IMG/VR virus record: IMGVR_UViG_3300037991_006036
Coordinates: 58,294-122,293 of that record
Strand: one strand, 5' to 3'
DNA length: 64,000 bases
Source: a virus
Lineage: Duplodnaviria; Caudoviricetes
Shown: positions 33,215 through 63,504 of the stretch, in pieces
Position numbering within the stretch: the stretch's first letter is position 1
Layout of the letters: each line of letters opens with the position of its first letter
Made by a program: the position numbers and the translations under genes
Notes under the pieces: generated by a model
Seen by the model: the letters and a program-made list of their open reading frames with translations, nothing else
Database searches by the model: none
What the model was told of the DNA's origin: nothing

Positions 33215-33381
33215 CTTTTAACTTGGATGATTATTTTATCATTGACTCTTTTAACAATAAAATTGGAAGGTACAATGTTTGTGAGATATTCTTCGTAGTA
33301 TGCATTACGATCAAACTTAGGCTTTTTAGGAACCTCAGCCTTAACATATCCGGGTGGCATTATGTCTTTTAGTTTGATCAT
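33211..33381 (-). CDS. 56-aa protein with class-B-like leader (MIKLKDIMPPGYVKAEVPKK...)
   Basis: Manually translated, below the track cutoff. ATGA overlap with the upstream stop; starts MIKLKDI like the other leader proteins. Confidence 0.7.
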   Translation of the reverse strand: MIKLKDIMPPGYVKAEVPKKPKFDRNAYYEEYLTNIVPSNFIVKRVNDKIIIQVKS

Positions 33382-34502
33382 GTTAAATTATAGTATGTCA
33401 TTATATCATTATTAATAGCTGATATGTTAGCTTCCTCTGACGATTTAAAAACAATAGCTTCCATAAACTCAGGACCTGAAGCTTTGTTGCTTTGATCATA
33501 CACAAATTGTCTAGTTTGTGTTTTTGTAAAATCGGTACGTGAAGCTTGCAACACATTGTTTACATAATATGCAGTAGTTCCTGGATCGTTTTGTAATAAT
33601 GTTGTGAAGGTGTATGGTGTATTAGTAGCAAATGTGTTTGTGCTTGTTAATATATTAGTAGGTCCCGTTCTATTAATTAATACAAATTGATCAGTAGTTT
33701 CATCATACTCAATAATAGCGTTATTTGCAAATTGTTTTGGTGACATTGAAACTCCTTCTACAGTAAAACTACCTCCAGGATCTTTTACATTAGTTGTTGT
33801 AAATATAGTTAATGGTTGAGATGCATCAAGATAATCAGAAGCATCTAGTGTAGCTGTTTTGTCTTGTCTCCACGTATTTACTGCTGCTACAAATTCTTTT
33901 CCACCTATTGTTATAGTTTCTAATACTCCATTAGTTACTAACTCATCCATTTGCCCACCAACATTAGCATTTAAGTGTGTCAATGTTTGATCTACTGTTT
34001 GGTTATAAAATTTTTCAATTTCTACAATATCTGCAGAAGGCATTGAATCAGGATTACTATATCCTGGTGCTGCACAAAATTCACCCAACGTTGTAGCTAA
34101 AACACCCGATGTAACTGCTGTTATTGGACTATCTAGTGATGTATAGTTGTTGCTATCAAAGTGTAAATCTGCCTGATCATCGGCAGTTCCTGTCGATCCA
34201 GCAGTACCTCGTCTTCTTATTCTCATTGAGAATCCAGTATAATCTGTTCTGAGTTTTCTAAATGAAGTGGCTAAAAAGGCTGTTGATCTGTTATCTAATA
34301 GAAGACCTCCCGTATCAACACTGCCGTAGGTTCTAGCAAACTGTTGTCTCAGATGCTCTTGATAACGCAAAAACGCTTCTTTTTTTCTTCTTTGATTGCG
34401 AGCATTATTAGCTTTAGAGGCTTCTTGTTCACGAAGCTCATCCTTAAGCGCTTGCTCTCTAGCCCAATCACTATTTCGTAAGTATTTGTTAAAATCTCCC
34501 AT
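33378..34502 (-). CDS. Shared-N-terminus protein with ArabFuranosidase-B-like/lectin domain
   Basis: NQRRKKEAFLRYQ N-module; SFRKLRTDYTGFSMRIRR motif. Confidence 0.65.
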   Translation of the reverse strand: MGDFNKYLRNSDWAREQALKDELREQEASKANNARNQRRKKEAFLRYQEHLRQQFARTYGSVDTGGLLLDNRSTAFLATSFRKLRTDYTGFSMRIRRRGTAGSTGTADDQADLHFDSNNYTSLDSPITAVTSGVLATTLGEFCAAPGYSNPDSMPSADIVEIEKFYNQTVDQTLTHLNANVGGQMDELVTNGVLETITIGGKEFVAAVNTWRQDKTATLDASDYLDASQPLTIFTTTNVKDPGGSFTVEGVSMSPKQFANNAIIEYDETTDQFVLINRTGPTNILTSTNTFATNTPYTFTTLLQNDPGTTAYYVNNVLQASRTDFTKTQTRQFVYDQSNKASGPEFMEAIVFKSSEEANISAINNDIMTYYNLT

Positions 34503-34503
34503 A

Positions 34504-35337
34504 TTATAATTCTGGAATATCTCCTTGTATATCTCCAGCTGTCATATTTTTTAACTCACCATTAAACCCACCGCTTCCATGATCAATTAAATCTGGGAAC
34601 GTGTCACCATCTCCCATTCGATACCATGAGTTTGGAGATAATGACGATAATCCTCCAGGCACTCCTCCATTATACATAGTTGCAAAGTTGGCTGATTGAT
34701 CTGAAGTCCAAAAGGCAGCTTCATCAATTTTTCCTAAAAATCTACCATAAGCACTAATACTCAATCTTAACCCATTGTAAGAAGTATACAGAATTGTCGC
34801 ACCTATAGATACATCACTACCTTGTACACCATTAACCATTCTCTTTAACGTACTTCCATCGTATGCAATGGCAACATGTGTCCACTCATCTTGTCCATTA
34901 CCTGCACCAAGACCTTGTGTTGTTCCATTTATTCTTGCAACAAATTGATTATAGTTCCAATAAATTTCTATTCCTTGATTACCTACACTGTGTGAGCCAT
35001 TTAAGAAAATATTTCTTCTATTAGAAGCTTCTGGCTTAGCCCACACGCTCATTGTTAGAGTTTGCACTTTTCTTGATGCATCAGAACCTAAAATAGCAAA
35101 ATCATTACTTCCATCGAACGCTGTACTGAATTGGTTTACAAAAGACTCTTCACCATAAGCGCTACCATAAGTTTTTGCGAATTGCTGATTTAAGTGTTGT
35201 TGATATCGTAAGAATGCTTCCTTCTTTCTTCGCTGATTTTGTCTTTTCTTAGCGTTAAAAGCCTCCTCCTCTTGCAACTTTTGTTTTGCTGCTAGCTCCC
35301 TAATATAATCTGCATTTCTAAGAAAGTCTCTTGACAT
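34504..35337 (-). CDS. Shared-N-terminus protein with LamG domain
   Basis: Same N-module; FDGSND..TMSVWAK..WTHVAIAYDG..FLGKIDEAAFW..WYRMGDG. Confidence 0.75.
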   Translation of the reverse strand: MSRDFLRNADYIRELAAKQKLQEEEAFNAKKRQNQRRKKEAFLRYQQHLNQQFAKTYGSAYGEESFVNQFSTAFDGSNDFAILGSDASRKVQTLTMSVWAKPEASNRRNIFLNGSHSVGNQGIEIYWNYNQFVARINGTTQGLGAGNGQDEWTHVAIAYDGSTLKRMVNGVQGSDVSIGATILYTSYNGLRLSISAYGRFLGKIDEAAFWTSDQSANFATMYNGGVPGGLSSLSPNSWYRMGDGDTFPDLIDHGSGGFNGELKNMTAGDIQGDIPEL

Positions 35338-35343
35338 AATTAA

Positions 35344-35592
35344 TTATTCTATTGTCCAATCATTTCCAGCTAATCGTGTTAAACATTCCGCATGAGTACC
35401 TCTCCAAGTTAAAGACACACTACCATCAGTAATAAATGTAGGTTCGTTTGCTGTAAACCATTTTAATGTAAATTGTGATTCGTCGACTGATAATCTGACT
35501 GTATCAGCTGATGTTTCCATCACTTGTGAAAAGTCTACCTTATCTATGTCTGTTGCGTTTGCGAATGCGTATGTTCTATCTGAATAATCCAT
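35344..35592 (-). CDS. Small fibre-associated hypothetical protein
   Basis: 82 aa (VDFSQVMETSADTVRLS) between the lectin-domain genes. Confidence 0.6.
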   Translation of the reverse strand: MDYSDRTYAFANATDIDKVDFSQVMETSADTVRLSVDESQFTLKWFTANEPTFITDGSVSLTWRGTHAECLTRLAGNDWTIE

Positions 35593-35594
35593 TA

Positions 35595-36602
35595 CTAATA
35601 AGTTTTGTAATAATTGTTAATATTAGTCTCTATAGCTGCTCTGTCAGTAGTCTTGTCTGCTAAATACATTATTAATTCAACTGGGTTTGCTGCATTATTA
35701 GATAATGCTTTATCGGGATAAAAAGTACTCCCCATTCGTGGAATAGTAGTCTCACTTCCTGATGCTATTTTATTTCCTTCAAAATATAAAGCTGTTTCTC
35801 CTGGTGCTTCATTAACAATAGCTGTTATTGTGTTTAGTGCATCTTGAGTGTGAGTTGCTGATCCTGATATATGACCTATGGTGCCATAAGGAGCATTCGA
35901 CCCTGTTTCAAGAGTTATGACATCACTTACTGTTTCTATTATTTCTTTACCTGCAGTGTGTTCAGCTAAATTTAGATAAAATTGTGATGCTGCATGAGCG
36001 TAGTTGGTTACAAACACTGTATGAGATGTTCCTGGATCTATGTCTTGGAGTCTTGCAGTAGCAGCATATTGTTTGTAAGTTTCGTTTAGATATAAGATAC
36101 TGCCCGAAACATACACATTACCACTTGTATCTGATACGAATAGAGAATTAGATCCAGCATTAATAGAATTTCTCACAGTTCCTTGCGATTGATCATACCA
36201 AGTATGCAATCTTCCCTGATTTCCATCTAAAAATGTACTTAAACTTTGTGTATCTAAATAATTGTCAATAAACCCAATATCCAATTCAGCATCATCAGAA
36301 GCACGTCTTACCCTAATAGCTGAGCCAGTGTAATCAGTACGTAGCTTTCTTAAAGACCATGCTAAATAAACGTCATCTCCATAATCATCTAACAGAAGTG
36401 ATGTTGATCCGCCAGGATTAGATCCTGCAGCCATTGCTCTTGCTGCTAACTCCTGTCGAAGATGTTCTTGATATCGTAAAAACGCTTCTTTTTTTCTTCG
36501 CTGATTTTGTTTCTTTTTAGCCTCAAACGCTTCTTCCTCTTGCAGTTTTTGTTTTGCTGCCCAATCTCGAATATGATCTGCATTTCTGAGAAAGTCTTTC
36601 AT
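35595..36602 (-). CDS. Shared-N-terminus protein with ArabFuranosidase-B-like/lectin domain
   Basis: Same N-module; AWSLRKLRTDYTGSAIRVRRASD..WYDQS..IETNINNYY. Confidence 0.7.
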   Translation of the reverse strand: MKDFLRNADHIRDWAAKQKLQEEEAFEAKKKQNQRRKKEAFLRYQEHLRQELAARAMAAGSNPGGSTSLLLDDYGDDVYLAWSLRKLRTDYTGSAIRVRRASDDAELDIGFIDNYLDTQSLSTFLDGNQGRLHTWYDQSQGTVRNSINAGSNSLFVSDTSGNVYVSGSILYLNETYKQYAATARLQDIDPGTSHTVFVTNYAHAASQFYLNLAEHTAGKEIIETVSDVITLETGSNAPYGTIGHISGSATHTQDALNTITAIVNEAPGETALYFEGNKIASGSETTIPRMGSTFYPDKALSNNAANPVELIMYLADKTTDRAAIETNINNYYKTY

Positions 36603-37471
36603 TTGTCTGATGTGGTTTCTACTACAACTTGTATTTTTGGTTCATAGCCTTGAGGCAGTTTATTTACCAATCCTTTGAAAGTAGAGTTACCAGCATCGTG
36701 TCTGAATTCAAACTTCAGATTATTAAGATCCATCATTACTTGTGATGATGTTGTAAAGCCATAACTGTTATCTCTTCTATATGGATTCATAAATTTATCA
36801 CTATCATGTTGCTTTGATAGTGCATCTAATATGTGTTCTTGTGACGATATATCCGACAATACATCGTATGCAATTTGTTGGCGTGACTTGGATGATTGTC
36901 TTTTTATCCCTCCAGTATATCCAGTATCTGGATAAGCTACACCATGATTTGTTCTTGTGATTGTTTGATCTGGTTGAACACGTTTAATAGTTGGTAAATG
37001 CTTTGTTGTCATTTCAATAATAAAACTATGCTGTGCATTAGATACAATAGTCATTCCTTTAACTCCAACATCATCTTCATCCTCTCCTTTAAAGTTGATT
37101 ATTGAGCGAATTGCTTTTGACAGCTTACCCTGCTCAAGAGCCTTTCTAATCTTTAACCCATCATATGATGGTTTTCCATTTTTACCCTTCTTAGCTTTAT
37201 CCTTAGCAAGGTCACCTTCCTTTTCATCAAAACCAACCATCAAAGAAGCATTAACTATTCCAATCCCATTCTCATTCATCCCTTCACTCCAATCAGTTAA
37301 CACATCTCTCATATATACAACCTCAACACCATCTACTAACTCATGCACTACTTCCAAATCAGGAGCATACATACGATCACGATTCTTTGCAAGAATAGTA
37401 TTACCATCAACACGACAACGTGCAATAACACACTCACTTAAATCGTGAAGAAGATGGCGAAGTTTAATCAT
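36599..37471 (-). CDS. Ntn-hydrolase (NRDE/C45/CBAH-like) with class-B leader
   Basis: Leader MIKLRHLLHDLSE, then CVIA..GNTILAKNRD..SEGMNENGIGI..RTNHG. Confidence 0.75.
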   Translation of the reverse strand: MIKLRHLLHDLSECVIARCRVDGNTILAKNRDRMYAPDLEVVHELVDGVEVVYMRDVLTDWSEGMNENGIGIVNASLMVGFDEKEGDLAKDKAKKGKNGKPSYDGLKIRKALEQGKLSKAIRSIINFKGEDEDDVGVKGMTIVSNAQHSFIIEMTTKHLPTIKRVQPDQTITRTNHGVAYPDTGYTGGIKRQSSKSRQQIAYDVLSDISSQEHILDALSKQHDSDKFMNPYRRDNSYGFTTSSQVMMDLNNLKFEFRHDAGNSTFKGLVNKLPQGYEPKIQVVVETTSDK

Positions 37472-37496: not shown

Positions 37497-37904
37497 CTAT
37501 TTTTTAGTTTCTTTGTGCTGATCGATTTTTTCTAGAATTTTAGATAGTACGTCTAATTGAATCCAACCACTCAGTGAAGCGTTTTTAAGTGCGCTGATAA
37601 GTTGGAATATTAGGAAAGGAACAACAACGGTTTCACTTAACCAACCCGTTCCTACAAAGCCCTTTTCTACAGCTAAGATTACACCTAAGATAACCCACCA
37701 CAATACTAAAGTTCGTAATACTTTGATTGCTTTATAGGTTTTAAATCCTTCACGTTTGATGCCAGCTATGATTCCAAAGAAGCCATCGAGAAGAACAACA
37801 CAAGCTACCGCTAAGAATTGTTCAGCGTTATCTAACGCAAGTCCTAAGAAATAGGAACAAATAAATGCACACGTGGTAGCAGCTGATATTATTGAAGTTT
37901 TCAT
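37497..37904 (-). CDS. Holin (phage holin family 4-like)
   Basis: Three TM segments, LDGFFGI..ISALKNA; adjacent to the endolysin. Confidence 0.7.
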   Translation of the reverse strand: MKTSIISAATTCAFICSYFLGLALDNAEQFLAVACVVLLDGFFGIIAGIKREGFKTYKAIKVLRTLVLWWVILGVILAVEKGFVGTGWLSETVVVPFLIFQLISALKNASLSGWIQLDVLSKILEKIDQHKETKK

Positions 37905-38860
37905 AAGGCTTTAAGCATTTCAACGAGCTCTGGTTGTGGAAAGCAATCAAACTTATCCTTACGAACATTTGTGTGTGTCCATAAGCCAAATTGTCTTGCA
38001 TTGTATGCATCTGAGTTAAACTCAAAAGCATCTTTTGGATGCACTCCTTCTTTTAGAAGTTTAGGCAATCCATTAACCAGATCCATTTTTGGGTATATAT
38101 TTTTGAGGTGTAATATTAATAATCGAAGAGATTCGATTTGTTTATCTGTGTATGCATGCCAATACTGATGTCCTCTGAATTTGTAACCTAAGTCACAAAC
38201 AAATTCTGGTTTAACCTCTGTATTGACGTAAGTATAATACTTATCGCCTTTTTTAGTTAAGTACCCAAAATTGTTAAGTTCAACTCCTCCGGACATCTTT
38301 GATATTGCAAACTTACCTACCTTACCCAAATGCCAACCTAAATAATTATTAGGAAAACACTCTACAACAGTTCCATCATATTTAGCTTCTTTACCCTTAA
38401 CATTAGAACCACCTATTACATACTGTGTAGCAACTCTACCACGCTTATCTTTGTTCCAACTATTAACAGTATTATAAGGATTATCCCAACCTGCAGTGTG
38501 GTGAATAAAAAATCCTAGTGGTTCAATTTTGCCATAATCTCTTACATATTCATCAGAATCAAGATACACTTTATCGATCACAAGACCATCTTCAGTTGTA
38601 TATGTTCCGTGTTTAGCAAGTTTATTATCTTTATCATAAGCAGTATCTTCTGCTGTTGTGTTGTTAGATTGATCTGTATCTATACCAGCAGCCTCCCATG
38701 TTGCTGGACCAACTATGCCGTCAGCTACCAGTCCTTTTTTCTTTTGCCACTCAATAGTTAACTTCTCAGTGTTAGCTCCAAATATTCCATCAGCAGCCGT
38801 ACCTATTACTTTTTGCCACTCCTTTACCTCTGCTCCTTTACTTCCTTTTCTTAATAACAT
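37901..38860 (-). CDS. Endolysin: PG-binding domain plus N-acetylmuramoyl-L-alanine amidase (Amidase_2)
   Basis: LRKGSKG..DGIFG..DGIVGPATW; IHHTAG..WHLG..GVEL..THTNVRKDKFDC. Confidence 0.9.
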   Translation of the reverse strand: MLLRKGSKGAEVKEWQKVIGTAADGIFGANTEKLTIEWQKKKGLVADGIVGPATWEAAGIDTDQSNNTTAEDTAYDKDNKLAKHGTYTTEDGLVIDKVYLDSDEYVRDYGKIEPLGFFIHHTAGWDNPYNTVNSWNKDKRGRVATQYVIGGSNVKGKEAKYDGTVVECFPNNYLGWHLGKVGKFAISKMSGGVELNNFGYLTKKGDKYYTYVNTEVKPEFVCDLGYKFRGHQYWHAYTDKQIESLRLLILHLKNIYPKMDLVNGLPKLLKEGVHPKDAFEFNSDAYNARQFGLWTHTNVRKDKFDCFPQPELVEMLKAL

Positions 38861-38870: not shown

Positions 38871-39200
38871 TTAAAAGTCACTCATTATAAGATTATCAAT
38901 CTCTTCTTGTATTTCACTTCTTGTAGCGGTAATCTTAAAAGAAAGATCAGCTTGATATCTTTTAACCTCTTCTCCATGATCAAATATAATAATAGTAGGA
39001 AAAACTACTAACTTATATTTTTTTTGATATGAAGGATATTTAGCTACATCTATATATTTAACACTACAATCACTCAATTTTCCTAACCACGTAACAGTAT
39101 TGGCTTTATTCCAATCTGCATTAAATTGTTTGACTGATATCTGCGAATAACACGCTGTAACGCATAATACACAAATCAATAATGAAAACAGTTTTTTCAT
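38871..39200 (-). CDS. Exported thioredoxin-like protein lacking CxxC
   Basis: Signal peptide; FNADWN..VVFPTIIIF..GEEVKR thioredoxin-fold pattern. Confidence 0.65.
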   Translation of the reverse strand: MKKLFSLLICVLCVTACYSQISVKQFNADWNKANTVTWLGKLSDCSVKYIDVAKYPSYQKKYKLVVFPTIIIFDHGEEVKRYQADLSFKITATRSEIQEEIDNLIMSDF

Positions 39201-39206
39201 AGCAGT

Positions 39207-39494
39207 CTATCTTAATTTGTCAATTTTTTCTTCTAACCTCTTCATATCCTCCTTCATCTCTTTAACATCTTCTTGAGTAGTCATGATGGTTTGTCTTATC
39301 AATTGATCCTTCATATCATACTCCATTCTAGTGACTTCTGGGTCTGGTGGTTTAGGTAGTTCTTTAGCTTCTTGTATGTCTGCTTGTAGTGCATACCACA
39401 TACCTACAACAGTTGCAATTCCAATAGCAATTCCAATAAGCGTCTTGATACTGACCTTAAATGATGAATCCTCATTTAGCTCTTTATCTGCCAT
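39207..39494 (-). CDS. Single-TM coiled-coil protein
   Basis: TM LIGIAIGIATVVGMWY, followed by a coiled coil. Confidence 0.7.
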   Translation of the reverse strand: MADKELNEDSSFKVSIKTLIGIAIGIATVVGMWYALQADIQEAKELPKPPDPEVTRMEYDMKDQLIRQTIMTTQEDVKEMKEDMKRLEEKIDKLR

Positions 39495-39496
39495 TT

Positions 39497-40561
39497 TTAC
39501 AAAATTATGTAGTTAACACCAACGCTAAAGTTGTGCCAACTACGATTCCAGTACTTGTTATATTTGCCTTCTAAAAATACTCCAAGGCTCTTATTAAACT
39601 TGTAACCGAAAATCAATCCTCCAGAATAATCAATCCACTGTCCACCATGAAAATTGTGATAAGAATACTCACTTTTAGTTTTCAAATGCACTGGCATTAT
39701 ATTACCCCAAGAATGTAACCAAAAGTTTTTAGTGTAGTGATAAAAGTCAAATCCTATTACCATCGAATAATTCCATTGTGGCGGTAGAGCACTTCTTTCG
39801 CTATCAGTGTAATCAGCTAACACTTCCGGAATTACAACTGCTTCCCACACTTGAGTATTTTCAGCTACTAGATCGCCAGCTGGATTGTAATAAGTAGTGC
39901 CGCCATTTCCATCAAACTCAATTGTATATCCTTCTTGTAATGCAAGTTGTGTGTAATGTAAATTGCCATTTGGTAACATCCAATCTTCTAATGGATTGTA
40001 TCCATATGGTTCAGATATACGTTGTACTGCTCCAATATTAAATGATAATTTTTCTCCAATTTTTTGTCTAAATCTTTCAGACGCTTCAAAGTATTGAATG
40101 TCTGCAAATCCGTCTTGTAAATACTCTACTTTAGCTATCCATCGCTTAGCTACATACCTCAAAAAATGATCTTGATTAAAAAATGAGATGCCTTGCTGTC
40201 TTGTCCAATCTGCTTCAAATAAGAATTCAAATCCATTTATCTTACCTATTGTAGCAGCATCACCATATGACTTTTCTGTTCCATCATAAAACACATTAGC
40301 TCTATTTTCATATCCAAATCTTGCAATCTTTCTTACACCAACTGCAACTGAATAATCAAAAGGTGTAGCTATAGTTTCTTTTGTTAAACCATTACTAACT
40401 GAATATACATCTACATCTGAAACAGAGTTACCTCCAGTTACTGCACCATAAAAAGTTGAATATTTGAATAACTTTTTAAGACCTGTCTTAAATTTAGATG
40501 GTTCTTTTTGACTAAAAAGAAGTGTAGGTATTAGTAAAAATATTAGTAACAGTCTTTTCAT
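39497..40561 (-). CDS. Exported protein, probable outer-membrane beta-barrel
   Basis: Signal peptide; aromatic-rich alternating strands; C-terminal FSVGVNYIIL. Confidence 0.6.
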   Translation of the reverse strand: MKRLLLIFLLIPTLLFSQKEPSKFKTGLKKLFKYSTFYGAVTGGNSVSDVDVYSVSNGLTKETIATPFDYSVAVGVRKIARFGYENRANVFYDGTEKSYGDAATIGKINGFEFLFEADWTRQQGISFFNQDHFLRYVAKRWIAKVEYLQDGFADIQYFEASERFRQKIGEKLSFNIGAVQRISEPYGYNPLEDWMLPNGNLHYTQLALQEGYTIEFDGNGGTTYYNPAGDLVAENTQVWEAVVIPEVLADYTDSERSALPPQWNYSMVIGFDFYHYTKNFWLHSWGNIMPVHLKTKSEYSYHNFHGGQWIDYSGGLIFGYKFNKSLGVFLEGKYNKYWNRSWHNFSVGVNYIIL

Positions 40562-43284: not shown

Positions 43285-43594
43285 CCTTGCTGTTACTGTT
43301 TTTACTGCTAAGTACCTTGCCAATTTCAGCGATACCAAAACTGCCTAACGTCACTATTAAAAACGAATTATAAATAAACTCTGATATGACCAAGTGATTA
43401 CCTGCCACACCAGTTACAATATCAGTGATAGCAAATATTGCCATCATACCAAATGACAAAAAACCGACAATTGTCTTCTCATTAATGCCATTATCATCCT
43501 TAAAAATATCTCTAAAAGCCATAAATTTTCTATTTAAGAACATCGTAATTCTTGAAACCTTTATAGCGTTATATAACCTTTTAAAGATGCTCAT
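43253..43594 (-). CDS. Two-TM membrane protein
   Basis: INEKTIVGFLSF..LGSFGI; first gene after the late motif at 43601-43608. Confidence 0.65.
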   Translation of the reverse strand: MSIFKRLYNAIKVSRITMFLNRKFMAFRDIFKDDNGINEKTIVGFLSFGMMAIFAITDIVTGVAGNHLVISEFIYNSFLIVTLGSFGIAEIGKVLSSKNSNSKDDEKVSEEEF

Positions 43595-44746: not shown

Positions 44747-45112
44747 TTATGAGAATTCATCAAATAAGTCTACTACTTTTTCCTCTTCTGCTTTGCTTAG
44801 AGGTCCATCATCAAACATGCCTGATATGTCATAATCACTTTCACCTTTAAGAGTAAGCTCACCTTCGTGAGATTTGCCTGCTGCATCCACATAGATGAAT
44901 TCTATCCTGGTACCCATAGCATATTTATCTTCAGCCATCTCTACTGCGTCAGCATAAATATCATTATCTAATTCCGTAGGTTTAGGAAACTGCATATCAG
45001 TACTTCCGTTATCCATACGTGAGATTAAAATTGTGTTTGGTTGAGCTATTGCTTCATTGAGACCAGCGATCTCCATCAGCCTTTTTCTTGTAAAATATTT
45101 ATTCATTTTCAT
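44747..45112 (-). CDS. Class-A leader protein
   Basis: MKMNKYFTRKRLMEIAGLNE plus acidic body. Confidence 0.8.
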   Translation of the reverse strand: MKMNKYFTRKRLMEIAGLNEAIAQPNTILISRMDNGSTDMQFPKPTELDNDIYADAVEMAEDKYAMGTRIEFIYVDAAGKSHEGELTLKGESDYDISGMFDDGPLSKAEEEKVVDLFDEFS

Positions 45113-45117
45113 TGAAT

Positions 45118-45447
45118 TTATAGTTGTATTGCTTCAGTAGCTTTTTTTAATGACATTGCGTTTATCGATGGGTCTTTCTTTTTCATATAAGCAATCAATT
45201 GTTCAAACCATTCTACCTCATACTCATCGTTAGATGCCCAATCTCCAGACTCTAAACTTGCTATAACGTCAGCCGGTTTTGCTGGTTCTTCTCTCATTGA
45301 TTCATCAGCTGTTTGTTCATCAAAGTTATCTGGATTAATATCTAGTAAATTTTCAATTACACCATATCCTGCATCTTGATCTGCTACTTCGTTGATTGGC
45401 AATCCTGCCATCTCCATTAGTCTTTTTTTTGTAAAATATTTACTCAT
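45118..45447 (-). CDS. Class-A leader protein
   Basis: MSKYFTKKRLMEMAGLPINE plus acidic body. Confidence 0.8.
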   Translation of the reverse strand: MSKYFTKKRLMEMAGLPINEVADQDAGYGVIENLLDINPDNFDEQTADESMREEPAKPADVIASLESGDWASNDEYEVEWFEQLIAYMKKKDPSINAMSLKKATEAIQL

Positions 45448-45734
45448 TTTTCTAGTATTGCTATTAATCGTTTATGGCCCTCTTCAGCACCAGTTTTATC
45501 TCCTCGTTTCAAAGCGTCGATAACATCACTCAAAGCTGAAGCTTCAGTGTGATAGTTAACATCAGTTGCGCTGTCTTCTACTTTTTCAAGTTCAGCAACG
45601 TCAGCAGTCTGTACATCAATATTCTTCATATACTCTATCATGCCATCGTAATCAAAATTACTAGCCCATCTTTGGCCAGGCTGAAAAGTCTCCTTGAGAC
45701 CCGCTAATTGTTTAAATCTACTTTTACTTATCAT
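45444..45734 (-). CDS. Class-A leader protein
   Basis: MISKSRFKQLAGLKE plus acidic body. Confidence 0.8.
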   Translation of the reverse strand: MISKSRFKQLAGLKETFQPGQRWASNFDYDGMIEYMKNIDVQTADVAELEKVEDSATDVNYHTEASALSDVIDALKRGDKTGAEEGHKRLIAILEK

Positions 45735-45982
45735 AGGTAATCTCTTAAACCGTATTCGGATTGTTGCATTGGATTAGCTTTAAAGAAAGTCTTTAACTCC
45801 TCACGAGCTTGATCCATCTTTTCTTCGTAGTCAGGACCATCTAGCTCCTCTGGCATATCTACATCAGTTAACTCAAACGCTGATGACATATCGTCAGCTA
45901 AGAATTCATCAATAGCATCCTCAAGTTGCATATCAGTCATTGACTCGTTAATGTGTTGTGGTATAAGGTCTCTCAGTTTCAT
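45731..45982 (-). CDS. Class-B-like leader protein, very acidic
   Basis: MKLRDLIPQHINE plus D/E-rich body. Confidence 0.8.
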   Translation of the reverse strand: MKLRDLIPQHINESMTDMQLEDAIDEFLADDMSSAFELTDVDMPEELDGPDYEEKMDQAREELKTFFKANPMQQSEYGLRDYL

Positions 45983-46134
45983 AAGCTATCTTCTTTTTTA
46001 ACGTATATTAGTTTTTCACGAATCTTATCCCAGATCGTGTAATCCAGTTTATCTTTAGGTAATCCGTCCAGATAGCCTTTCAGCCACGTTACGAATTCTT
46101 CTGGAGTAATATCGGTTGTGTTATTTCCTGCCAT
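45979..46134 (-). CDS. 51-aa hypothetical protein (MAGNNTTDITPEEFVTWLKGYLDG...)
   Basis: Manually translated; fills the gap, with an ATGA overlap to the next gene. Confidence 0.65.
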   Translation of the reverse strand: MAGNNTTDITPEEFVTWLKGYLDGLPKDKLDYTIWDKIREKLIYVKKEDSL

Positions 46135-46137
46135 GGT

Positions 46138-46482
46138 TTACTTAGTTATAAAATCATCATATACACCTTGATCAATACCATCCTCTAACCACTGAGCACC
46201 ATTATTACCTAACCATATCTCTAAATCTTCTCGCATTGTTTCCGCAAGTTTTTGCTGCTGTGCTTTATCGTTAGGATCCATTATAATGTTAGCATCCATC
46301 TCTTCAGCAGATGTTAGAAAATACTCAACAGCTCTTTCAAACATCACTGTCATTTCAACATCACCTCCTGCTGCAGAAGGAATAACTTTAGCATTAGACT
46401 CCTTTAGATTCTCTTGTTTAGGTTCAACAAAAGGATTGTTGATAGCGGCTAACTCTTGAAGCCTTTTCTTAGTTGTTTTCAT
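46138..46482 (-). CDS. Class-A leader protein
   Basis: MKTTKKRLQELAAINN..NLKE. Confidence 0.8.
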   Translation of the reverse strand: MKTTKKRLQELAAINNPFVEPKQENLKESNAKVIPSAAGGDVEMTVMFERAVEYFLTSAEEMDANIIMDPNDKAQQQKLAETMREDLEIWLGNNGAQWLEDGIDQGVYDDFITK

Positions 46483-47042: not shown

Positions 47043-47044
47043 AG

Positions 47045-47365: not shown

Positions 47366-47366
47366 A

Positions 47367-47573
47367 TTATCTTATATCATGCTTTTCTAGGACCTCCATA
47401 ACAATAGGAATCATGTTTGCACTTAATAAAGAACCTCCTCTATTATTCTGCTCTATTACTGCATCCATAATCTCCTGCGCTAAGGTTTCTTGAAATTTCC
47501 CTGAGCCCAAGGAGTGAACACTTACGGGTGCTTCCTTAATATTAGCTAATTCTTGTAATCTACTCTTCTTCAT
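47367..47573 (-). CDS. Class-A leader protein (start corrected to 47573)
   Basis: MKKSRLQELANIKE; TAA-T-ATG junction. Confidence 0.8.
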   Translation of the reverse strand: MKKSRLQELANIKEAPVSVHSLGSGKFQETLAQEIMDAVIEQNNRGGSLLSANMIPIVMEVLEKHDIR

Positions 47574-47574
47574 A

Positions 47575-47820: not shown

Positions 47821-47821
47821 A

Positions 47822-59050: not shown

Positions 59051-59581
59051 CTATGCTTTGACTGATTTTATTATAATATCTGGATATTTGTCTTGAAGCT
59101 TTGCTACTGCATCTACATTCTTCTGAGAATCATCTATAAAGAATATCTTGTTATAACCTTTCTTGATTTCCTTTTCAATATACTCAGCTTTCTTTTGTGG
59201 ATTAGAGTCACCTACTGGTACAATGTATGGGTCAATGTTGTGTTGTGTCTTGAAGAAATGCTTCATTGGATATCCCATTGCACGTGCTGTTAGTATAGTG
59301 ACTTTGTTTTGTGCATTAGACATAGCTTTCTTCAGCATCTTCATGTTACGATCAATAGTCTGTGGATTCTTTAACATGCTGTTAAAATCTTTCCAATCAA
59401 ACTTATCACCTGGCTCCTCTTCGTACTTGGCATACTCAGCTGGATCCAAAGTTAATTTAGTTCCATCTGCTTTTGTTATGTATATGTAAGATTCAGATGT
59501 AGCTAATGTATCATCAAAGTCAAATATGACAAGTCGTTTGCCAAGTTGCTTTTCGTTTAATATTTCAGCTAGTTTGATCAT
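59051..59581 (-). CDS. HAD-superfamily phosphatase with class-B leader
   Basis: MIKLAEILNE; FDFDDTL, ILTAR, K, FIDDS motifs. Confidence 0.85.
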   Translation of the reverse strand: MIKLAEILNEKQLGKRLVIFDFDDTLATSESYIYITKADGTKLTLDPAEYAKYEEEPGDKFDWKDFNSMLKNPQTIDRNMKMLKKAMSNAQNKVTILTARAMGYPMKHFFKTQHNIDPYIVPVGDSNPQKKAEYIEKEIKKGYNKIFFIDDSQKNVDAVAKLQDKYPDIIIKSVKA

Positions 59582-60645
59582 CCCTTCTTCCAGCCTCCTC
59601 CAGCTGCTTTGTATTTTTTAGCTGCCCATGCATTAGCATAAGCACTTGGATAAACATCAAATTTCTTCTTAGCTTGTGACTTGTAATATGACCATTTTGA
59701 TGGATTAGTTGGTACATTCTTTTCTAAAAATAACTCCAACTTTTCATGTAGCTTGTTACTCATTTCGTTTGCTTTAGTTTTTACTCTAATAGGTTTACGT
59801 CCTTGTCCTGGTTGTTTCTTTCCTCCTCTACCAGCTTTATTTTGTGCTGCTCGTTTTCTACGAGTAGCTGATTCTTTTTCTTTCTTACTCATGGTTCTTG
59901 CTTTAGCAGCAGGAACACACTTAGCATATCCTCTCTTCTTACCACTTGTTCCACATTCTGGATGCTTACCAGATTTATCCTTCTTTCCAATATTCACCCA
60001 CTTCTGTTTGAACCACTTACGAAGATCTTCTGAGAGCTCTACTTTCTTGAGTTTGTCTTGATTTTTCATATACCAATCTAACCAGGTTTTTTTGATTTCA
60101 TTCCAATCTGCATCTTTGTGATGTTGAAAGTTTAGTATATTTTCCTTTTGCCAATCATCCATCACTTGATCGAGTGTTTGTTTTTTGTATCTCGCTCTTG
60201 TTATAAAACCCTTAACATAAGCAGGCACTTCAACAGCACTTGTTAAGTATCCTTGATAAGTGTCATGGTCTTTGTCAGATCCTGTGACTATAAACATATC
60301 ATCAAAATTCTGTTGTCCAACATGCTCAAGCTCGTGTCTAACCGACTCTCTAATCTCTGCAATAAAGTCATTCATAGCTGCTGGGAACATTTTTGGGTTA
60401 TACTCTATATCTAAGGTTAGCTTATCCGAAGATCCTCCTCCAGTTATTGAGTGTGAGTATTCTTGATTAGGTCTTTTGTGAAACTTTGCAACTAAATCAA
60501 ACTCTGCTTCTTCATCACCTCGCTCTATCACATACATCTCTTTGAAGTTTCTTTTATTCTTAAACGCATCAACAATGTCTTTAGATATCATCTTGGTATA
60601 TGAATCAAATATTCCTTCGTACAGTATATCTTTCAGCTTACTCAT
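59578..60645 (-). CDS. Modular class-B leader protein: HExxH domain plus basic DUF5872-like modules
   Basis: MSKLKDILYE; RHELEH..EVPAY; LSE-DLRKWFKQKWV; YPSAYANAW. Confidence 0.75.
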   Translation of the reverse strand: MSKLKDILYEGIFDSYTKMISKDIVDAFKNKRNFKEMYVIERGDEEAEFDLVAKFHKRPNQEYSHSITGGGSSDKLTLDIEYNPKMFPAAMNDFIAEIRESVRHELEHVGQQNFDDMFIVTGSDKDHDTYQGYLTSAVEVPAYVKGFITRARYKKQTLDQVMDDWQKENILNFQHHKDADWNEIKKTWLDWYMKNQDKLKKVELSEDLRKWFKQKWVNIGKKDKSGKHPECGTSGKKRGYAKCVPAAKARTMSKKEKESATRRKRAAQNKAGRGGKKQPGQGRKPIRVKTKANEMSNKLHEKLELFLEKNVPTNPSKWSYYKSQAKKKFDVYPSAYANAWAAKKYKAAGGGWKKG

Positions 60646-61232
60646 TTCTTTTTTCCACTCTTCATGTTAGCACACCAATGATACATCTTACCTCTTTCAC
60701 CACCATACTTCTTAGCTCTTGCTCGCAAATCAGTTACTGATCCTTTACAACTAGCTCCTGCACGTTTGACTCTACCTGGACGACTCTTGCCTTTCTTTTT
60801 TCCATCTTTGAAGTTTTCAGAAACTGCTTCATATTTTTTCCAATTCTCTTCTGCTTTCAGAGCTTCTTTTTCATATGGATGATTTGTGTAGTTAAATCCT
60901 TTATCATAAAACTCTTTAAACTTTGCTTGGTCTTGTAGTGTGTGTGTATGTTCATGCAATAAGGATCTAATAATATTTTCTTCAGTTATCATTAGTTCTG
61001 AATATAAATATATGATGTTATCGTATGGATCATATTCAGCATCTGGATTACCTTCTTCTCGTTTTAGATCCTCAACTGCAACTGCACCTAATCTATCCCA
61101 TATGTTTGGATGAACCTCAACTGGCTTAGCTTGTCCACCTAAGTCTTTAACTATTTGTGGATACACTCTATCAACAATCTTCTTGATCTCGCTCTCAGTC
61201 ACTTCTTTCAATATGTCTTTTAGCTTAATCAT
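60642..61232 (-). CDS. Class-B leader protein: HExxH metallopeptidase-like domain plus basic C-module
   Basis: MIKLKDILKE; LLHEHTH..PYEKEA; VSE-NFKDGKKKGKSRPGR. Confidence 0.75.
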   Translation of the reverse strand: MIKLKDILKEVTESEIKKIVDRVYPQIVKDLGGQAKPVEVHPNIWDRLGAVAVEDLKREEGNPDAEYDPYDNIIYLYSELMITEENIIRSLLHEHTHTLQDQAKFKEFYDKGFNYTNHPYEKEALKAEENWKKYEAVSENFKDGKKKGKSRPGRVKRAGASCKGSVTDLRARAKKYGGERGKMYHWCANMKSGKKK

Positions 61233-62230
61233 TTTGTTTGCCTCTCTCTATCTGTAGGATATAGTTGAAAGTAATCATCGTATGCTCTGTATCTGTAGCT
61301 GTTGTTTAACTTGGGTAGTTGCTTCTTTATGTATGCTGAGTATAGCTTTCCTCTTTTGCTAGAGGTTCCATACTCTGATTCATCCTCCTCAACCTTCGGT
61401 TCAATATTAATCTCATGTATTACGAAATACTCATCCCACTCATTGATCCATTGCAATACGATAGCTACTATTGTAGCCATCACTCTGTATTGTTCATGCA
61501 TGTTAGTCATCCTCATCTTATTGTCTATTTTACCAAAAGACTTAGTATAGAAATCAACGCCAACTTCGAGACCTTCTTGTTCATAATCTCCATCTGAATC
61601 ATATTCAATCTTTACAATATATTCAGTTCCCTTATCTGTTTTAAATTGAAAATTAGAATCTCCTAGATAAGCAGTAGTCGATCCACCACCATATCGTTGC
61701 TGTTTAAACTCAGCAGGAGTCCACATGATGTTGTTGAGGGATTGTTCTTTCCAATCATATGGTTTGATAGATGCATCTCCTATCTCTTTCAACATAGGCA
61801 TGAGCTTAGTCATATCTGCTCTATCAACTGGCATCTCTTCTTTTCCTACTTCCTTATCATCAGTAGGAATATCCTCATACATACTGATCGTATCTCCTGA
61901 CATCTCCCAAGGACCCCAATGCTTTGCTTTGAGTATCCATTTTAGTGATTCATCTGTATTGTAGTATTTGTTATCCTCCTTACGAACACCTCCAATAGCA
62001 TAGTATAAATCTTTAGGTACTTCTAACTTTTTTCCATTAGAGTGATCTAATACTGTATCGTTTGTTTCTACCCAAGCATGACCAAATCTCTTACCTTCCA
62101 ATGCTCCTTGTCCATTCACCATTCCATGCACTAGTGTGTGATCACCACGTAACTTTGTCATAAGTCTGCCAGCTGCTTGATAACAATCTCCAGTTGCAAC
62201 TTCTAGTAATATGTTGTTAAGTTTGATCAT
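61229..62230 (-). CDS. Class-B leader protein: Cys/His (papain/transglutaminase-like) domain plus second domain
   Basis: MIKLNNILLE; GDCY..LVHG..GHAWVE..D; internal LKE-IGD. Confidence 0.7.
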   Translation of the reverse strand: MIKLNNILLEVATGDCYQAAGRLMTKLRGDHTLVHGMVNGQGALEGKRFGHAWVETNDTVLDHSNGKKLEVPKDLYYAIGGVRKEDNKYYNTDESLKWILKAKHWGPWEMSGDTISMYEDIPTDDKEVGKEEMPVDRADMTKLMPMLKEIGDASIKPYDWKEQSLNNIMWTPAEFKQQRYGGGSTTAYLGDSNFQFKTDKGTEYIVKIEYDSDGDYEQEGLEVGVDFYTKSFGKIDNKMRMTNMHEQYRVMATIVAIVLQWINEWDEYFVIHEINIEPKVEEDESEYGTSSKRGKLYSAYIKKQLPKLNNSYRYRAYDDYFQLYPTDRERQTK

Positions 62231-62430
62231 TCAAATTTTCTTCTATACTTTGCACGTTGATCTTCTAGTACATACTCAACTACATCTCTTTTACCGCAAT
62301 GTGGACAATTCAAATGCTCAATGTTTTCAGCTTCATTAATCTTCCACTCTCCTTTGCAGGAGCTACACTTATAAATGTATGTGTGTCGGATAAATACTTT
62401 GTGGCTCATATCTGTGTGTCGGGATACCAA
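62227..62430 (-). CDS. Zinc-ribbon protein
   Basis: CSSC..CPHC; true start probably MSHK. Confidence 0.65.
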   Translation of the reverse strand: MVSRHTDMSHKVFIRHTYIYKCSSCKGEWKINEAENIEHLNCPHCGKRDVVEYVLEDQRAKYRRKFE

Positions 62431-62458
62431 TCGTTGTCATCCCATTCGTCTGGTTGAT

Positions 62459-62932
62459 TCATTTTATTGGTCCTCCTCCGACCCAAGCATCGCAAGATCT
62501 AGCTCCTGCACACTTGAACCAAAAGAATTCACAGAAACCTATATTTGCATTTTTAACTATCGTTTTGCCATCTGGTCCTATGGCTTTTTCAATTTTATTG
62601 AGTGTAGCTTTCTTCTGATCAAATGCTCCACAATTACCACACCTTGATTGTTTAGCAGCTTCTACTGTAGTATTCCACAGCTCAGCTTTATCTTCCCAAA
62701 AAGGTTCAGATCCTTTTTCGTCATCTGGATTGAGTGGTCCATAACTATATTCTTTGATTGTACGATTTCTGTTTAGAGTATTAAGATCTAAATCAGTAAT
62801 CGAATCCTCAGGCTTACCATCTTTGTTACCAATCTCCTTTTCTTTTTTCAAAGCAGCTGGAGTATTGTATCCATCATAATCTGATAACTTTCCTTCAAGG
62901 ACAATGTCTTTTACTATTCCTTTGAGTTTCAT
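62459..62932 (-). CDS. Cys-rich protein with class-B-like leader
   Basis: MKLKGIVKDIVLE; RCGNC..FCE..KC..CDAW metal-binding pattern. Confidence 0.75.
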   Translation of the reverse strand: MKLKGIVKDIVLEGKLSDYDGYNTPAALKKEKEIGNKDGKPEDSITDLDLNTLNRNRTIKEYSYGPLNPDDEKGSEPFWEDKAELWNTTVEAAKQSRCGNCGAFDQKKATLNKIEKAIGPDGKTIVKNANIGFCEFFWFKCAGARSCDAWVGGGPIK

Positions 62933-63504
62933 TAGAATTTACCTATCATTATTTTAGTTACCGGCTGTCCATTAATCTGTCTTGTGTACCATCCATTTCC
63001 AGGTTTGTTGCCTTTAGGATGTTTTCCATGCCATGTTGTCTCTTTAGATCTTCTATCACCTAATACTTTACGTACTTGTGCTTCATCTTCTACTACTGGA
63101 ACACCTCCTCTACCTACAAACGTATCGAAAGCAGCACCTGACACTTCTACATAGTTTCCAGGCTTCTTGAGTTCAGCTGACTTCTTTGTTAAAAGGTTTT
63201 TGATATTCCCTCGTTCACCGTCATGTCCCATTCCAGTGTGTTTAACTCCAAATGGTGTTTCTTTTCCAAAATACACTACATCAATCTCAGGATCTGCATC
63301 CAAGTCAGCAACTCTCCAGAATTTGAGATTTGGATCTGTCATCTTATCTGGACTCTTGTATTTGAGATGTCCTCCAATAGGAGCATAGGCATTTGCAACA
63401 AGGTTATAGAGATCTTGTTTTAGATCATCCACGTCTGCGCTTGTTGGCTCTACATATTTACCTTTAGGTAAATCTAATTCTTTTAGAATGTCTTTCAGTT
63501 TCAT
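62932..63504 (-). CDS. Class-B leader protein, unknown function
   Basis: MKLKDILKE; first gene after the late motif. Confidence 0.8.
   Translation of the reverse strand: MKLKDILKELDLPKGKYVEPTSADVDDLKQDLYNLVANAYAPIGGHLKYKSPDKMTDPNLKFWRVADLDADPEIDVVYFGKETPFGVKHTGMGHDGERGNIKNLLTKKSAELKKPGNYVEVSGAAFDTFVGRGGVPVVEDEAQVRKVLGDRRSKETTWHGKHPKGNKPGNGWYTRQINGQPVTKIMIGKF

What the first reader, a model, noticed from the sequence alone, without database searches (positions are those of the whole stretch)
36599..37471. Ntn-hydrolase whose catalytic Cys sits immediately after the leader Glu: a maturation-activated zymogen
Seen: MIKLRHLLHDLSE|CVIARCRVDGNTILAKNRD..EGMNENG..RTNH. Known: Ntn hydrolases (NRDE/TANGO2, C45, choloylglycine hydrolase) need the nucleophilic Cys as the free N-terminal residue. 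Inference: the cut predicted from the shared leader (LSE|C) falls exactly where activation requires it. This independently supports cleavage after the Glu and suggests the enzyme is switched on during head maturation. Autoprocessing of the short propeptide is an alternative.
Basis: partly seen in the sequence, partly recalled or inferred. Interest (0 to 1): 0.82.

Follow-up and report, generated by a model that had tools for sequence, protein, structure and literature searches.

The report
Phage hydrolase armed by capsid protease
A T4-like marine phage encodes an amide-bond hydrolase whose catalytic cysteine sits directly behind a capsid-addressing leader ending in the phage head protease's cutting motif, so head maturation probably both packages the enzyme and switches it on.

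Summary

- The phage genome encodes a T4 gp21-type (S77) prohead protease, a Gp23 capsid protein and a T4-type portal.
- About ten unrelated ORFs share the MIKL..IL.E leader, which has the same hydrophobic spacing as the T4 capsid targeting sequence.
- In 114 homologues P1 is Glu in 113 and P3 is Leu/Ile in 100, while P2 and leader length vary.
- In other phage lineages the hydrolase carries that lineage's own shared leader, plus a second [LIV]xE directly before the Cys.
- S77 was found in every near-complete genome with an E|C junction.
- A sister clade in S77-less, ClpP-encoding huge phages has [KR]x[ASG]|C instead.

Autoprocessing, the norm for Ntn hydrolases, is not excluded. The protease covariation amounts to one deep split. 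The substrate is unknown.

The protein is a distant relative of peptidase C45, below family cut-offs, in a family seen almost only in viruses. The scan noted the same idea on another genome (e1-5726114), without follow-up. No paper in the library combines 'Ntn hydrolase' with 'prohead protease'.

The parts
36599..37471 (-). Whole ORF: 290-aa precursor of a Cys-Ntn hydrolase (stop codon 36599-36601)
   Evidence: ORF list. AF2 model pLDDT 88.8, pTM 0.88. Ntn-hydrolase fold matches, Z 16-21.
37433..37471 (-). Leader, residues 1-13 (MIKLRHLLHDLSE): CTS-like addressing peptide ending in the L-x-E motif
   Evidence: Disordered in the model, pLDDT <50 for residues 1-12. Same pattern at the N-terminus of about 10 other ORFs. 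Hydrophobic residues at positions 4, 7 and 8, as in the T4 CTS MKTYQEFIAE.
37430..37432 (-). Cys14 codon (TGT): predicted N-terminal nucleophile of the mature enzyme
   Evidence: Invariant in 50 of 50 aligned homologues. Model residue 14 aligns with Cys126 of NAAA, Cys143 of acid ceramidase, Cys2 of BSH and TANGO2, and Cys1 of PVA.
36602..37432 (-). Mature catalytic domain, residues 14-290
   Evidence: Alpha-beta-beta-alpha sandwich starting with strand 14-21. NCBIfam C45_proenzyme match covers residues 21-253 against profile positions 100-312 only.
37376..37384 (-). N30-R31-D32 motif (invariant K29-N-R-D-R33)
   Evidence: Invariant columns of alignment A1. In mature numbering these are R18 and D19, close to R18/D21 of bile salt hydrolases (the BSH residue numbers are from my own knowledge).
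36941..36955 (-). R173-T-N175-H176-G177 motif, candidate oxyanion-hole Asn
   Evidence: R173, N175, H176 and G177 are invariant in A1. The Pfam AAT match covers residues 140-226.
59051..63504 (-). Six consecutive unrelated ORFs with the same class of leader (MIKLAEILNE, MSKLKDILYE, MIKLKDILKE, MIKLNNILLE, MKLKGIVKDIVLE, MKLKDILKE): 59051-59581, 59578-60645, 60642-61232, 61229-62230, 62459-62932, 62932-63504
   Evidence: N-termini. The bodies are unrelated: one HAD/DUF2608-like, the others with no family. Codons differ synonymously.
45731..45982 (-). Another ORF with the leader (MKLRDLIPQHINE|S)
37497..38860 (-). Upstream neighbours: holin (37497-37904) and PG_binding_1 + Amidase_2 endolysin (37901-38860). 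The adjacency is not conserved beyond close relatives.
   Evidence: Pfam. Synteny is seen only in relatives with at least 76% identity.

Best explanation
The gene encodes the precursor of a cysteine N-terminal-nucleophile (Ntn) amidohydrolase, a distant relative of peptidase C45 and NAAA. Its first 13 residues are a T4-CTS-like leader. The proposed sequence of events is as follows. The leader docks the precursor into the assembling prohead core. The phage's gp21-type (S77) prohead protease cuts after Glu13 in the L-S-E motif. That single cut removes the address tag and creates the free alpha-amino group of Cys14 that Ntn catalysis requires. The enzyme is therefore inert while it is made in the producing cell, becomes active only in the maturing head, and is probably ejected with the DNA into the next host, where it hydrolyses an as yet unknown amide (C-N) bond. 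What is shown here: the fold, the nucleophile position, the conserved [LIV]-x-E|C junction, the shared leader, and the S77 protease in the genome. What is inferred: packaging, cleavage by the protease, activation, ejection and the substrate.
For: Fold and nucleophile: the AF2 model has pLDDT 88.8, a disordered leader and a first strand starting at residue 14. All top Foldseek hits are Cys-Ntn hydrolases. With VIA-align, residue 14 aligns with the first residue of mature NAAA (C126/C131), acid ceramidase (C143), BSH (C2), PVA (C1) and TANGO2 (C2), at Z 15.7-20.9.

Protease: the same genome record encodes Peptidase_S77 (94.6 bits, cut-off 27), a Gp23 capsid protein with an N-terminal extension (Pfam match starts at residue 69, with LKE55|G upstream) and a T4-type portal. 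T4-type proteases cut C-terminal to Glu (PMC5694885).

Leader as address: the T4 CTS is MKTYQEFIAE (PMC8442874). In T4, residues 4 and 7 serve targeting and residues 8 and 10 serve processing (PMC9026906). The leaders here have hydrophobic residues at positions 4, 7 and 8 and Glu at 10. The pattern is found at 12 of 153 ORF N-termini against 1 of 834 internal Met positions, with synonymous codon variation.

Junction conservation: P1 is Glu in 113 of 114 homologues, P3 is Leu/Ile in 100 of 114, and P2 and leader length (5-120 aa) vary. Among 50%-identity representatives, P1 is Glu in 49 of 49 and P3 is L/I/V/M in 48 of 49.

Lineage-specific leaders: in contigs L046, L048 and L057 the hydrolase leader matches the leader of 3-6 neighbouring unrelated genes of the same contig, and a second [LIV]xE abuts the Cys.

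Co-occurrence: S77 is present in all 6 near-complete (at least 90%) E|C genomes and in Chryseobacterium phage MA9V-1 (FLNE|C, 38% identity). It is absent from 15 of 15 contigs of the [KR]x[ASG]|C clade, whose near-complete genomes encode a ClpP-type protease instead.

Leaderless M|C forms exist, so the leader is not needed for folding.
Against: There is no direct evidence: no virion proteomics for any relative (the MA9V-1 paper has SDS-PAGE only). Ntn hydrolases, including the C45 family, normally free their nucleophile by autoproteolysis, and nothing here excludes that. The covariation between protease type and junction motif maps to a single deep split of the tree, so it counts as about one independent event. 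One homologue cluster (P0018) has Asp before the Cys, and in T4 an Asp at the processing position inhibits cleavage. For the long-form homologues (about 370 aa) S77 was not found, but those contigs are only 36-43% complete. T4 prohead protease can also cut soluble proteins in vivo (PMC12991175), so cleavage need not imply packaging.
Confidence: 0.6

Rival explanations
1. Autoprocessing. The precursor frees Cys14 by itself through an intramolecular N-to-S acyl shift, as in C45/AAT, PVA, NAAA and acid ceramidase. The leader may still address the protein to the capsid, and the L-x-E at the junction is then redundant or serves only to trim the tag.
For: The closest named family is NCBIfam 'C45 family autoproteolytic acyltransferase/hydrolase'. 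Structural neighbours include several self-activating precursors: the AAT precursor, the NAAA precursor and self-activated acid ceramidase. In the wider family the domain also sits in the middle or at the C-terminal end of 500-2800-aa multidomain proteins, where self-cleavage would be a simple way to release the upstream part. P0018 has Asp at P1.
Against: Autoprocessing does not explain why P3 is L/I/V/M in 48 of 49 representatives and P1 is Glu in 49 of 49 in one clade, while P3 is K/R in 75 of 75 and P1 is A/S/G in 75 of 75 in the other, with P2 free in both. It does not explain why jumbo-phage homologues keep a second [LIV]xE exactly at the Cys after an earlier CTS site. It does not explain why the motif equals the end of the leaders of unrelated non-Ntn genes in the same genomes.
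Confidence: 0.25
2. Late-infection switch without packaging. The prohead protease cuts the soluble precursor in the cytoplasm late in infection, and the hydrolase acts in the producing cell, for example as a helper of lysis or envelope breakdown.
For: The gene lies directly downstream of the holin and endolysin genes in the same orientation. T4 prohead protease cleaves soluble host proteins in vivo (PMC12991175).
Against: Adjacency to the lysis genes holds only in relatives with at least 76% identity. The leader has the CTS layout and is shared with many unrelated genes that are not near lysis genes.
Confidence: 0.1
3. The leader is not removed. The protein is a non-catalytic or differently catalytic Ntn-fold protein, and the E|C conservation reflects a structural role.
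For: No direct evidence of cleavage exists.
Against: Cys14 and the N-R-D and T-N-H-G motifs are invariant across relatives down to about 50% identity. Leaderless M|C forms, which expose the Cys after Met removal, arose several times. This argues that a free N-terminal Cys is the functional state.
Confidence: 0.03

Closest known systems
Peptidase C45 / acyl-CoA:6-aminopenicillanic acid acyltransferase (Pfam PF03417 AAT; NCBIfam NF040521 C45_proenzyme)
   Same: Best sequence-family match (E 1.2e-3 in Pfam, 4.1e-10 in NCBIfam). 24 of 50 homologues hit PF03417. The AAT precursor 2x1c aligns at Z 19.5, with model residues 7-279 on chain residues 96-349, which places Cys14 opposite Cys103.
   Different: Scores are below both curated cut-offs (19.1 against 23.2 bits; 39.5 against 85 bits). 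Only the beta-subunit part of the profile (positions 100-312) is matched, so the roughly 100-residue alpha-subunit/propeptide region is absent. The junction is L-x-E|C rather than the Gly|Cys autoprocessing site of AAT (the Gly102|Cys103 site is from my own knowledge).
NAAA / acid ceramidase (lysosomal Cys-Ntn amidases of N-acyl lipids) and CV2077 (PDB 3gvz, unknown function)
   Same: Closest structures: 3gvz Z 20.9, NAAA Z 19.8, acid ceramidase Z 19.3. Residue 14 aligns with the first residue of their beta chains.
   Different: Sequence identity is 14-16% and there is no sequence-level match to any solved structure. Those enzymes self-activate at acid pH and keep the alpha subunit (my own knowledge). 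The substrate here is unknown.
T4 internal proteins IPI/IPII/IPIII and Alt, with their capsid targeting sequence
   Same: A short N-terminal leader of 10-19 residues, hydrophobic at positions 4, 7 and 8, ending in Glu and cut by gp21. It is shared by otherwise unrelated cargo proteins, and the genome encodes an S77 protease.
   Different: In T4 the cut only releases the cargo from the scaffold; in the reviews read here, no cargo is described as being catalytically switched on by it. Here the cut would create the catalytic N-terminus. Position 10 of this leader is Asp, which blocks processing in T4, and the usable site has moved to E13 next to the Cys.
   Same: Same Cys-Ntn fold, with a Cys followed about 16 residues later by an (N)RD motif. 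Z 15.7 for TANGO2 and 16-18 for BSH/PVA.
   Different: No Pfam hit to either family, and lower structural scores than C45/NAAA. Those proteins start M-C or carry a 3-residue or signal-peptide extension (my own knowledge).
Polyvalent proteins of phages and conjugative elements (Iyer et al. 2017, PMC5512222)
   Same: Distant family members are 500-2800-aa multidomain proteins that combine this domain with PolyA_pol, LigT/2'-5' RNA ligase, Fe/Mn-SOD and Zeta-toxin-like kinase domains.
   Different: That paper does not mention an Ntn domain: 'N-terminal nucleophile' and 'NRDE' each occur 0 times. The window protein is a stand-alone domain.

Membership tests
Ntn-hydrolase superfamily (Cys-Ntn branch) | Four-layer alpha-beta-beta-alpha sandwich fold | tested here: met
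   AF2 model pLDDT 88.8. Of 1000 chains aligned, 877 score Z >= 8, and the top rows are all Ntn hydrolases at Z 16-21.
Ntn-hydrolase superfamily (Cys-Ntn branch) | Nucleophile (Cys/Ser/Thr) at the first position of the first beta-strand of the mature chain | tested here: met
   Strand 14-21 starts at Cys14. Residue 14 aligns with C126, C143, C2 and C1 of NAAA, aCDase, BSH/TANGO2 and PVA. Cys is invariant.
Ntn-hydrolase superfamily (Cys-Ntn branch) | Free alpha-amino group of the nucleophile in the active enzyme (precursor is processed) | not testable with these tools
   Needs N-terminal sequencing or intact mass of the protein from virions or from recombinant expression.
Peptidase C45 / AAT (PF03417, NF040521) | Score above the curated family cut-off | tested here: not met
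   PF03417 19.1 bits against 23.2. NF040521 39.5 bits against 85. Some homologues pass PF03417.
Peptidase C45 / AAT (PF03417, NF040521) | Proenzyme with a roughly 100-residue alpha region N-terminal to the nucleophile that stays as a subunit | tested here: not met
   Only profile positions 100-312 of 313 are matched, and the protein has 13 residues before the Cys.
TANGO2 / NRDE (PF05742) | Sequence match to the family model; Met-Cys start | tested here: not met
   No PF05742 hit at E <= 1. The leader has 13 residues. The structural match is Z 15.7, below C45/NAAA.
Choloylglycine hydrolase / PVA (PF02275) | Sequence match to the family model | tested here: not met
   No PF02275 hit at E <= 1. 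The fold match at Z 16-18 shows superfamily kinship only.
T4-type CTS-addressed capsid cargo | N-terminal leader of 10-20 residues with hydrophobic positions 4, 7 and 8, ending in [LI]-x-E | tested here: met
   MIKLRHLLHDLSE has L4, L7, L8 and L11-S-E13. T4 reference.
T4-type CTS-addressed capsid cargo | Leader shared by several unrelated proteins of the same phage | tested here: met
   About 10 ORFs of class B in the genome. The same holds with other leaders in other lineages.
T4-type CTS-addressed capsid cargo | Phage encodes a gp21-type (S77) prohead protease | tested here: met
   G000:C1:36041-36658, 94.6 bits.
T4-type CTS-addressed capsid cargo | Protein present in the virion, with the leader removed at the Glu | not testable with these tools
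   No virion mass-spectrometry data for any relative.

The most novel reading that the evidence does not exclude
Delegated unmasking may be a general rule. An almost exclusively viral family of Ntn hydrolases (574 clusters at 50% identity) has handed the creation of its catalytic N-terminus to the head-maturation protease of whichever phage carries it. One deep clade places the Cys after [LIVM]-x-E, the S77/gp21 motif. The other places it after [KR]-x-[ASG], in huge phages that lack S77 and encode a ClpP-type protease. If true, the second motif would reveal the so far unknown cleavage specificity of those huge-phage proteases. It would also define a class of protease-armed enzyme cargo that includes giant polyvalent proteins.
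Probability: 0.35. Interest if true: 0.85.

Novelty: new variant of a known kind. Interest (0 to 1): 0.72.

Why it matters
Capsid-delivered proteins are the first phage weapons to reach a new host, yet outside T4 few have a known activity or a known control. Here one proteolytic cut would serve three purposes: release from the scaffold, removal of the address tag, and creation of the catalytic residue. That is an economical safety catch, because it keeps a hydrolase harmless in the producing cell and armed in the particle.

The hypothesis is directly testable, because cultivable Chryseobacterium phages (MA9V-1 and MA9V-2) carry a homologue with the same junction. The conserved junction also gives a sequence-only way to read a phage protease's specificity and to list candidate capsid cargo in uncultured marine and huge phages. 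Finally, it flags a large family, seen almost only in viruses, whose substrate is unknown.

Tried and rejected
- PHROGs gave no family.
- A profile search of PDB sequences gave only a chance hit to isocitrate dehydrogenase, E 0.15.
- Megablast against the phage collection found nothing. tblastn found only two Chryseobacterium jumbo phages.
- A scan of one genome per prokaryote species with alignment A1 found no cellular relative. A second scan with A2 could not be run because no stretch was conserved enough. So absence from cellular genomes is only weakly tested, although the protein-atlas clusters are 96-100% viral.
- A link to lysis was considered because of the holin and endolysin neighbours. 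It was set aside as the main reading because the synteny fades below 76% identity.
- Protease covariation was hoped to be a strong independent test. The tree shows it is essentially one deep split, so it only counts as consistent.
- S78 (HK97-type) protease was sought in the [KR]x[ASG] clade and not found.
- The long-form N-terminal domain (about 85 aa) and its leader were looked at in L165 without a clear result.
- A protease-substrate complex prediction was not attempted, because enzyme-substrate pairs are poorly served by that tool.
- The substrate could not be inferred.
Full report
**1. The observation.** window:36599-37471 (minus strand) is an open frame of 290 codons that starts at the first ATG after a stop. 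There is no other Met before Cys14, so any product that contains the cysteine also carries the 13-residue leader. The gene overlaps the start of the next gene by 4 bases and follows a holin (Phage_holin_4_1) and an endolysin (PG_binding_1 + Amidase_2) on the same strand.

**2. The fold.** Pfam gives only a sub-threshold hit to AAT/peptidase C45 (E 1.2e-3, 19.1 bits against a cut-off of 23.2). NCBIfam gives C45_proenzyme at E 4.1e-10, but at 39.5 bits against a cut-off of 85, and only over profile positions 100-312.

- A 50-sequence alignment (A1) gave an AlphaFold2 model with mean pLDDT 88.8 and pTM 0.88. Residues 1-12 are below pLDDT 50, and the first strand runs from residue 14 to 21.
- All top Foldseek matches are Cys-Ntn hydrolases: AAT, CV2077, bile salt hydrolases, NAAA, PVA, C69 and TANGO2.
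- With VIA-align the best are CV2077 (Z 20.9), NAAA (19.8), AAT precursor (19.5) and acid ceramidase (19.3).
- In the two-chain or mature structures the alignment starts at model residue 14, opposite residue 126 of human NAAA, 131 of mouse NAAA, 143 of acid ceramidase, 2 of BSH and TANGO2, and 1 of PVA. The entry titles themselves name several of these as the catalytic cysteines (C126A, Cys143Ala, Cys2Ala, Cys1Ser).

So the fold is Ntn and Cys14 is the nucleophile position. C14, K29-N-R-D-R33, N175-H176-G177, R197 and R232 are invariant in A1, which argues for an active enzyme.

**3. The phage.** The window is the right-hand part of a 122-kb viral record (G000; window = C1:58294-122293). The left part encodes a Peptidase_S77 (T4 gp21-type) prohead protease at C1:36041-36658 (94.6 bits). 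It also encodes a Gp23-family capsid protein whose Pfam match starts at residue 69, with LKE55|G upstream. A T4-type portal, tail sheath and tail tube are also present. T4-type and giant-phage prohead proteases cut C-terminal to Glu after a short motif (PMC5694885; PMC9026906). The host is probably a member of the Bacteroidota. This is an inference from the only isolate relatives being Chryseobacterium phages and from a Por_Secre_tail gene next to a homologue.

**4. The leader is an address tag, not an Ntn propeptide.**

- In this genome about ten unrelated ORFs begin M(I)KL..(I/L)(L/V).E, for example MIKLKDILKE, MIKLNNILLE, MSKLKDILYE and MKLRDLIPQHINE. A second group begins M..K.RL.E.AG(L/I).E.
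- The class-B pattern is found at 12 of 153 ORF N-termini but at only 1 of 834 internal Met positions. The codons differ synonymously, so the selection acts on the peptide.
- The bodies are unrelated: one is HAD/DUF2608-like and the others have no family.
- The T4 capsid targeting sequence is MKTYQEFIAE (PMC8442874). In T4, residues 4 and 7 carry targeting and residues 8 and 10 carry processing, and Asp at position 10 blocks processing but not targeting (PMC9026906).
- The leaders here have the same length and the same layout: hydrophobic at 4, 7 and 8, and Glu at 10.
- The hydrolase leader has L4, L7 and L8 but Asp at position 10, and its only [LI]-x-E is L11-S12-E13, directly before Cys14.

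**5. The junction is conserved; the rest of the leader is not.**

- Among 120 listed homologues (52-92% identity), 114 have a recognisable junction. P1 is Glu in 113 (one Asp, P0018), P3 is Leu or Ile in 100, and P2 is variable. The length of the N-terminal extension ranges from 5 to about 120 residues, including a 365-375-aa 'long form' with an extra domain.
- All 80 related IMG/VR loci, down to 42% identity, keep [LIVM]-x-E|C.
- Chryseobacterium phage MA9V-1 (38% identity) has FLNE|C and an annotated S77 protease.
- In three other lineages where neighbours could be compared (L046, L048, L057), the hydrolase carries that lineage's own leader. In L057 it starts MKNLVRSILNE while six neighbours start MKNLIRNILKE, MKELIRHILKE and the like. 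In L046 it starts MNLKDSIKNILRE while six neighbours start MNLQESIRRILRE.
- In these jumbo phages the shared leader already ends in an L-x-E. It is nevertheless followed by a spacer and a second [LIV]-x-E that abuts the Cys, as in ...SILNE-VYQQQNKPDLIKE|C. A cut at the first site alone would leave the Cys masked. The second site makes sense only if the same protease is expected to free the Cys.

**6. Protease co-occurrence.**

- Peptidase_S77 was found in 8 of 15 and 4 of 6 contigs with E|C junctions. This includes all six that are at least 90% complete; the misses are fragments 28-71% complete.
- A profile search of 1.84 billion representatives found 574 clusters, which fall into three junction classes:
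  - [LIVM]-x-E|C: 49 representatives, P1 Glu in 49 of 49.
  - [KR]-x-[ASG]|C: 75 representatives, P3 K/R in 75 of 75.
  - M|C with no leader: 15 representatives.
- None of 15 contigs of the second class has S77, including three that are 95-100% complete. Four of five have a ClpP-type protease and none has S78.
- Leaderless M|C forms occur in S77 phages (3 of 3) and arose several times inside the E clade.

Caveat: the tree shows one deep split between the E clade and the A/S/G clade. The covariation with protease type is therefore about one independent event. It is consistent with trans-cleavage but not strong evidence by itself.

**7. Mechanism and rivals.**

Best reading (about 0.6): the leader takes the precursor into the prohead core, and the S77 protease cuts after E13. 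This removes the tag and creates the catalytic N-terminus, so the enzyme is silent in the producing cell and armed in the particle.

Main rival (about 0.25): autoprocessing, which is the rule in C45, PVA, NAAA and acid ceramidase. It is favoured by the many relatives in which the domain lies inside giant multidomain proteins fused to PolyA_pol, LigT, SOD or Zeta-toxin-like domains. It does not explain the two clade-specific three-residue motifs with a free P2, the duplicated site in jumbo phages, or the identity of the motif with the leader ends of non-Ntn genes.

Lesser rival (about 0.1): cleavage in the cytoplasm late in infection without packaging. This is suggested by the lysis-gene neighbourhood and by the finding that T4 protease cuts soluble proteins in vivo (PMC12991175). 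However, the synteny with lysis genes is limited to close relatives.

P0018 (Asp|Cys) is an unexplained exception.

**8. Comparison with what is known.** By fold the protein is a Cys-Ntn hydrolase. By sequence it is a distant, sub-threshold relative of peptidase C45 that lacks the alpha region. It is not a member of TANGO2/NRDE or choloylglycine hydrolase by sequence. The family appears almost restricted to viruses: atlas clusters are 96-100% viral, and no cellular relative was found in one scan. It works like a T4 internal protein as far as addressing goes. In T4, however, the reviews read here describe no cargo as being catalytically activated by the cut. No paper in the searchable library combines 'Ntn hydrolase' with 'prohead protease', and the polyvalent-protein survey does not mention an Ntn domain. 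The same scan noted the same idea on a related genome (e1-5726114, leader MIKLRNLLHELNE, the type seen here in L005-L009) without follow-up.

**9. Verdict.** What remains open is who makes the cut and what the enzyme hydrolyses. I rate it a new variant of known kinds (CTS cargo combined with an Ntn zymogen), interest 0.72.

Noticed in passing
P0122-P0269; viral loci L085-L162: A sister clade of the same hydrolase always has [KR]-x-[ASG] before the catalytic Cys (75 of 75 representatives). It occurs in huge phages (up to 375 kb) that lack S77 and encode a ClpP-type protease. The motif looks like a second protease recognition site.
   Followed up: partly
P0154, P0155, P0169, P0170, P0178, P0183: The Ntn domain is fused, at the N-terminus, in the middle or at the C-terminus, to PolyA_pol nucleotidyltransferase, LigT/2'-5' RNA ligase, Fe/Mn superoxide dismutase, Zeta-toxin-like kinase and DUF5661 domains in 850-1900-aa proteins. 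These are polyvalent-protein-like architectures not listed in PMC5512222.
   Followed up: partly
window 33378-36602 (-): Three neighbouring genes (374, 277 and 335 aa) share a charged N-terminal segment of about 55 residues (..DFLRNAD.IR..AAKQKLQEEEAF.AKK.QNQRRKKEAFLRYQ..). They then diverge into Laminin_G_3/ConA-like bodies. An 82-aa ORF lies between two of them.
   Followed up: partly
window 44747-48025 (-): A tandem array of small acidic ORFs all start with a second leader type, M..K.RL.E.AG(L/I).E, which also ends in [LI]-x-E.
   Followed up: no
P0030-P0107 long forms; L165:10001-11119: About 40% of the close homologues are 365-375 aa. They carry an extra conserved N-terminal domain of about 85 residues (..VSKPYEF..GD.VKNIN..C.HYKSTGEVV.VH.NGDITY.V.N..) before the (L/I)NE|C junction. 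Its role is unknown. Their contigs were too incomplete to test for S77.
   Followed up: partly
L167:6502-10545 (Chryseobacterium phage MA9V-1, MA9V1_151): The S77 prohead protease domain of MA9V-1 is the N-terminal part of a 1347-aa protein, far longer than the 205-aa protease of the window's phage.
   Followed up: no
P0018: One homologue cluster (71% identity, seen on 15 contigs) has Asp instead of Glu before the Cys (PLND|C). In T4, Asp at the processing position blocks cleavage.
   Followed up: no
G000:C1:31651-33273 (outside the window): The Gp23-family capsid protein has an N-terminal extension of about 55-68 residues with LKE55|G, a likely maturation cleavage site of the same [LI]-x-E type.
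   Followed up: partly
window 38871-43338 (-): Several ORFs upstream of the lysis genes start with Bacteroidota-style signal peptides (MKKLFSLLICVLCVTACYSQ, MKRLLLIFLLIPTLLFSQ).
   Followed up: no
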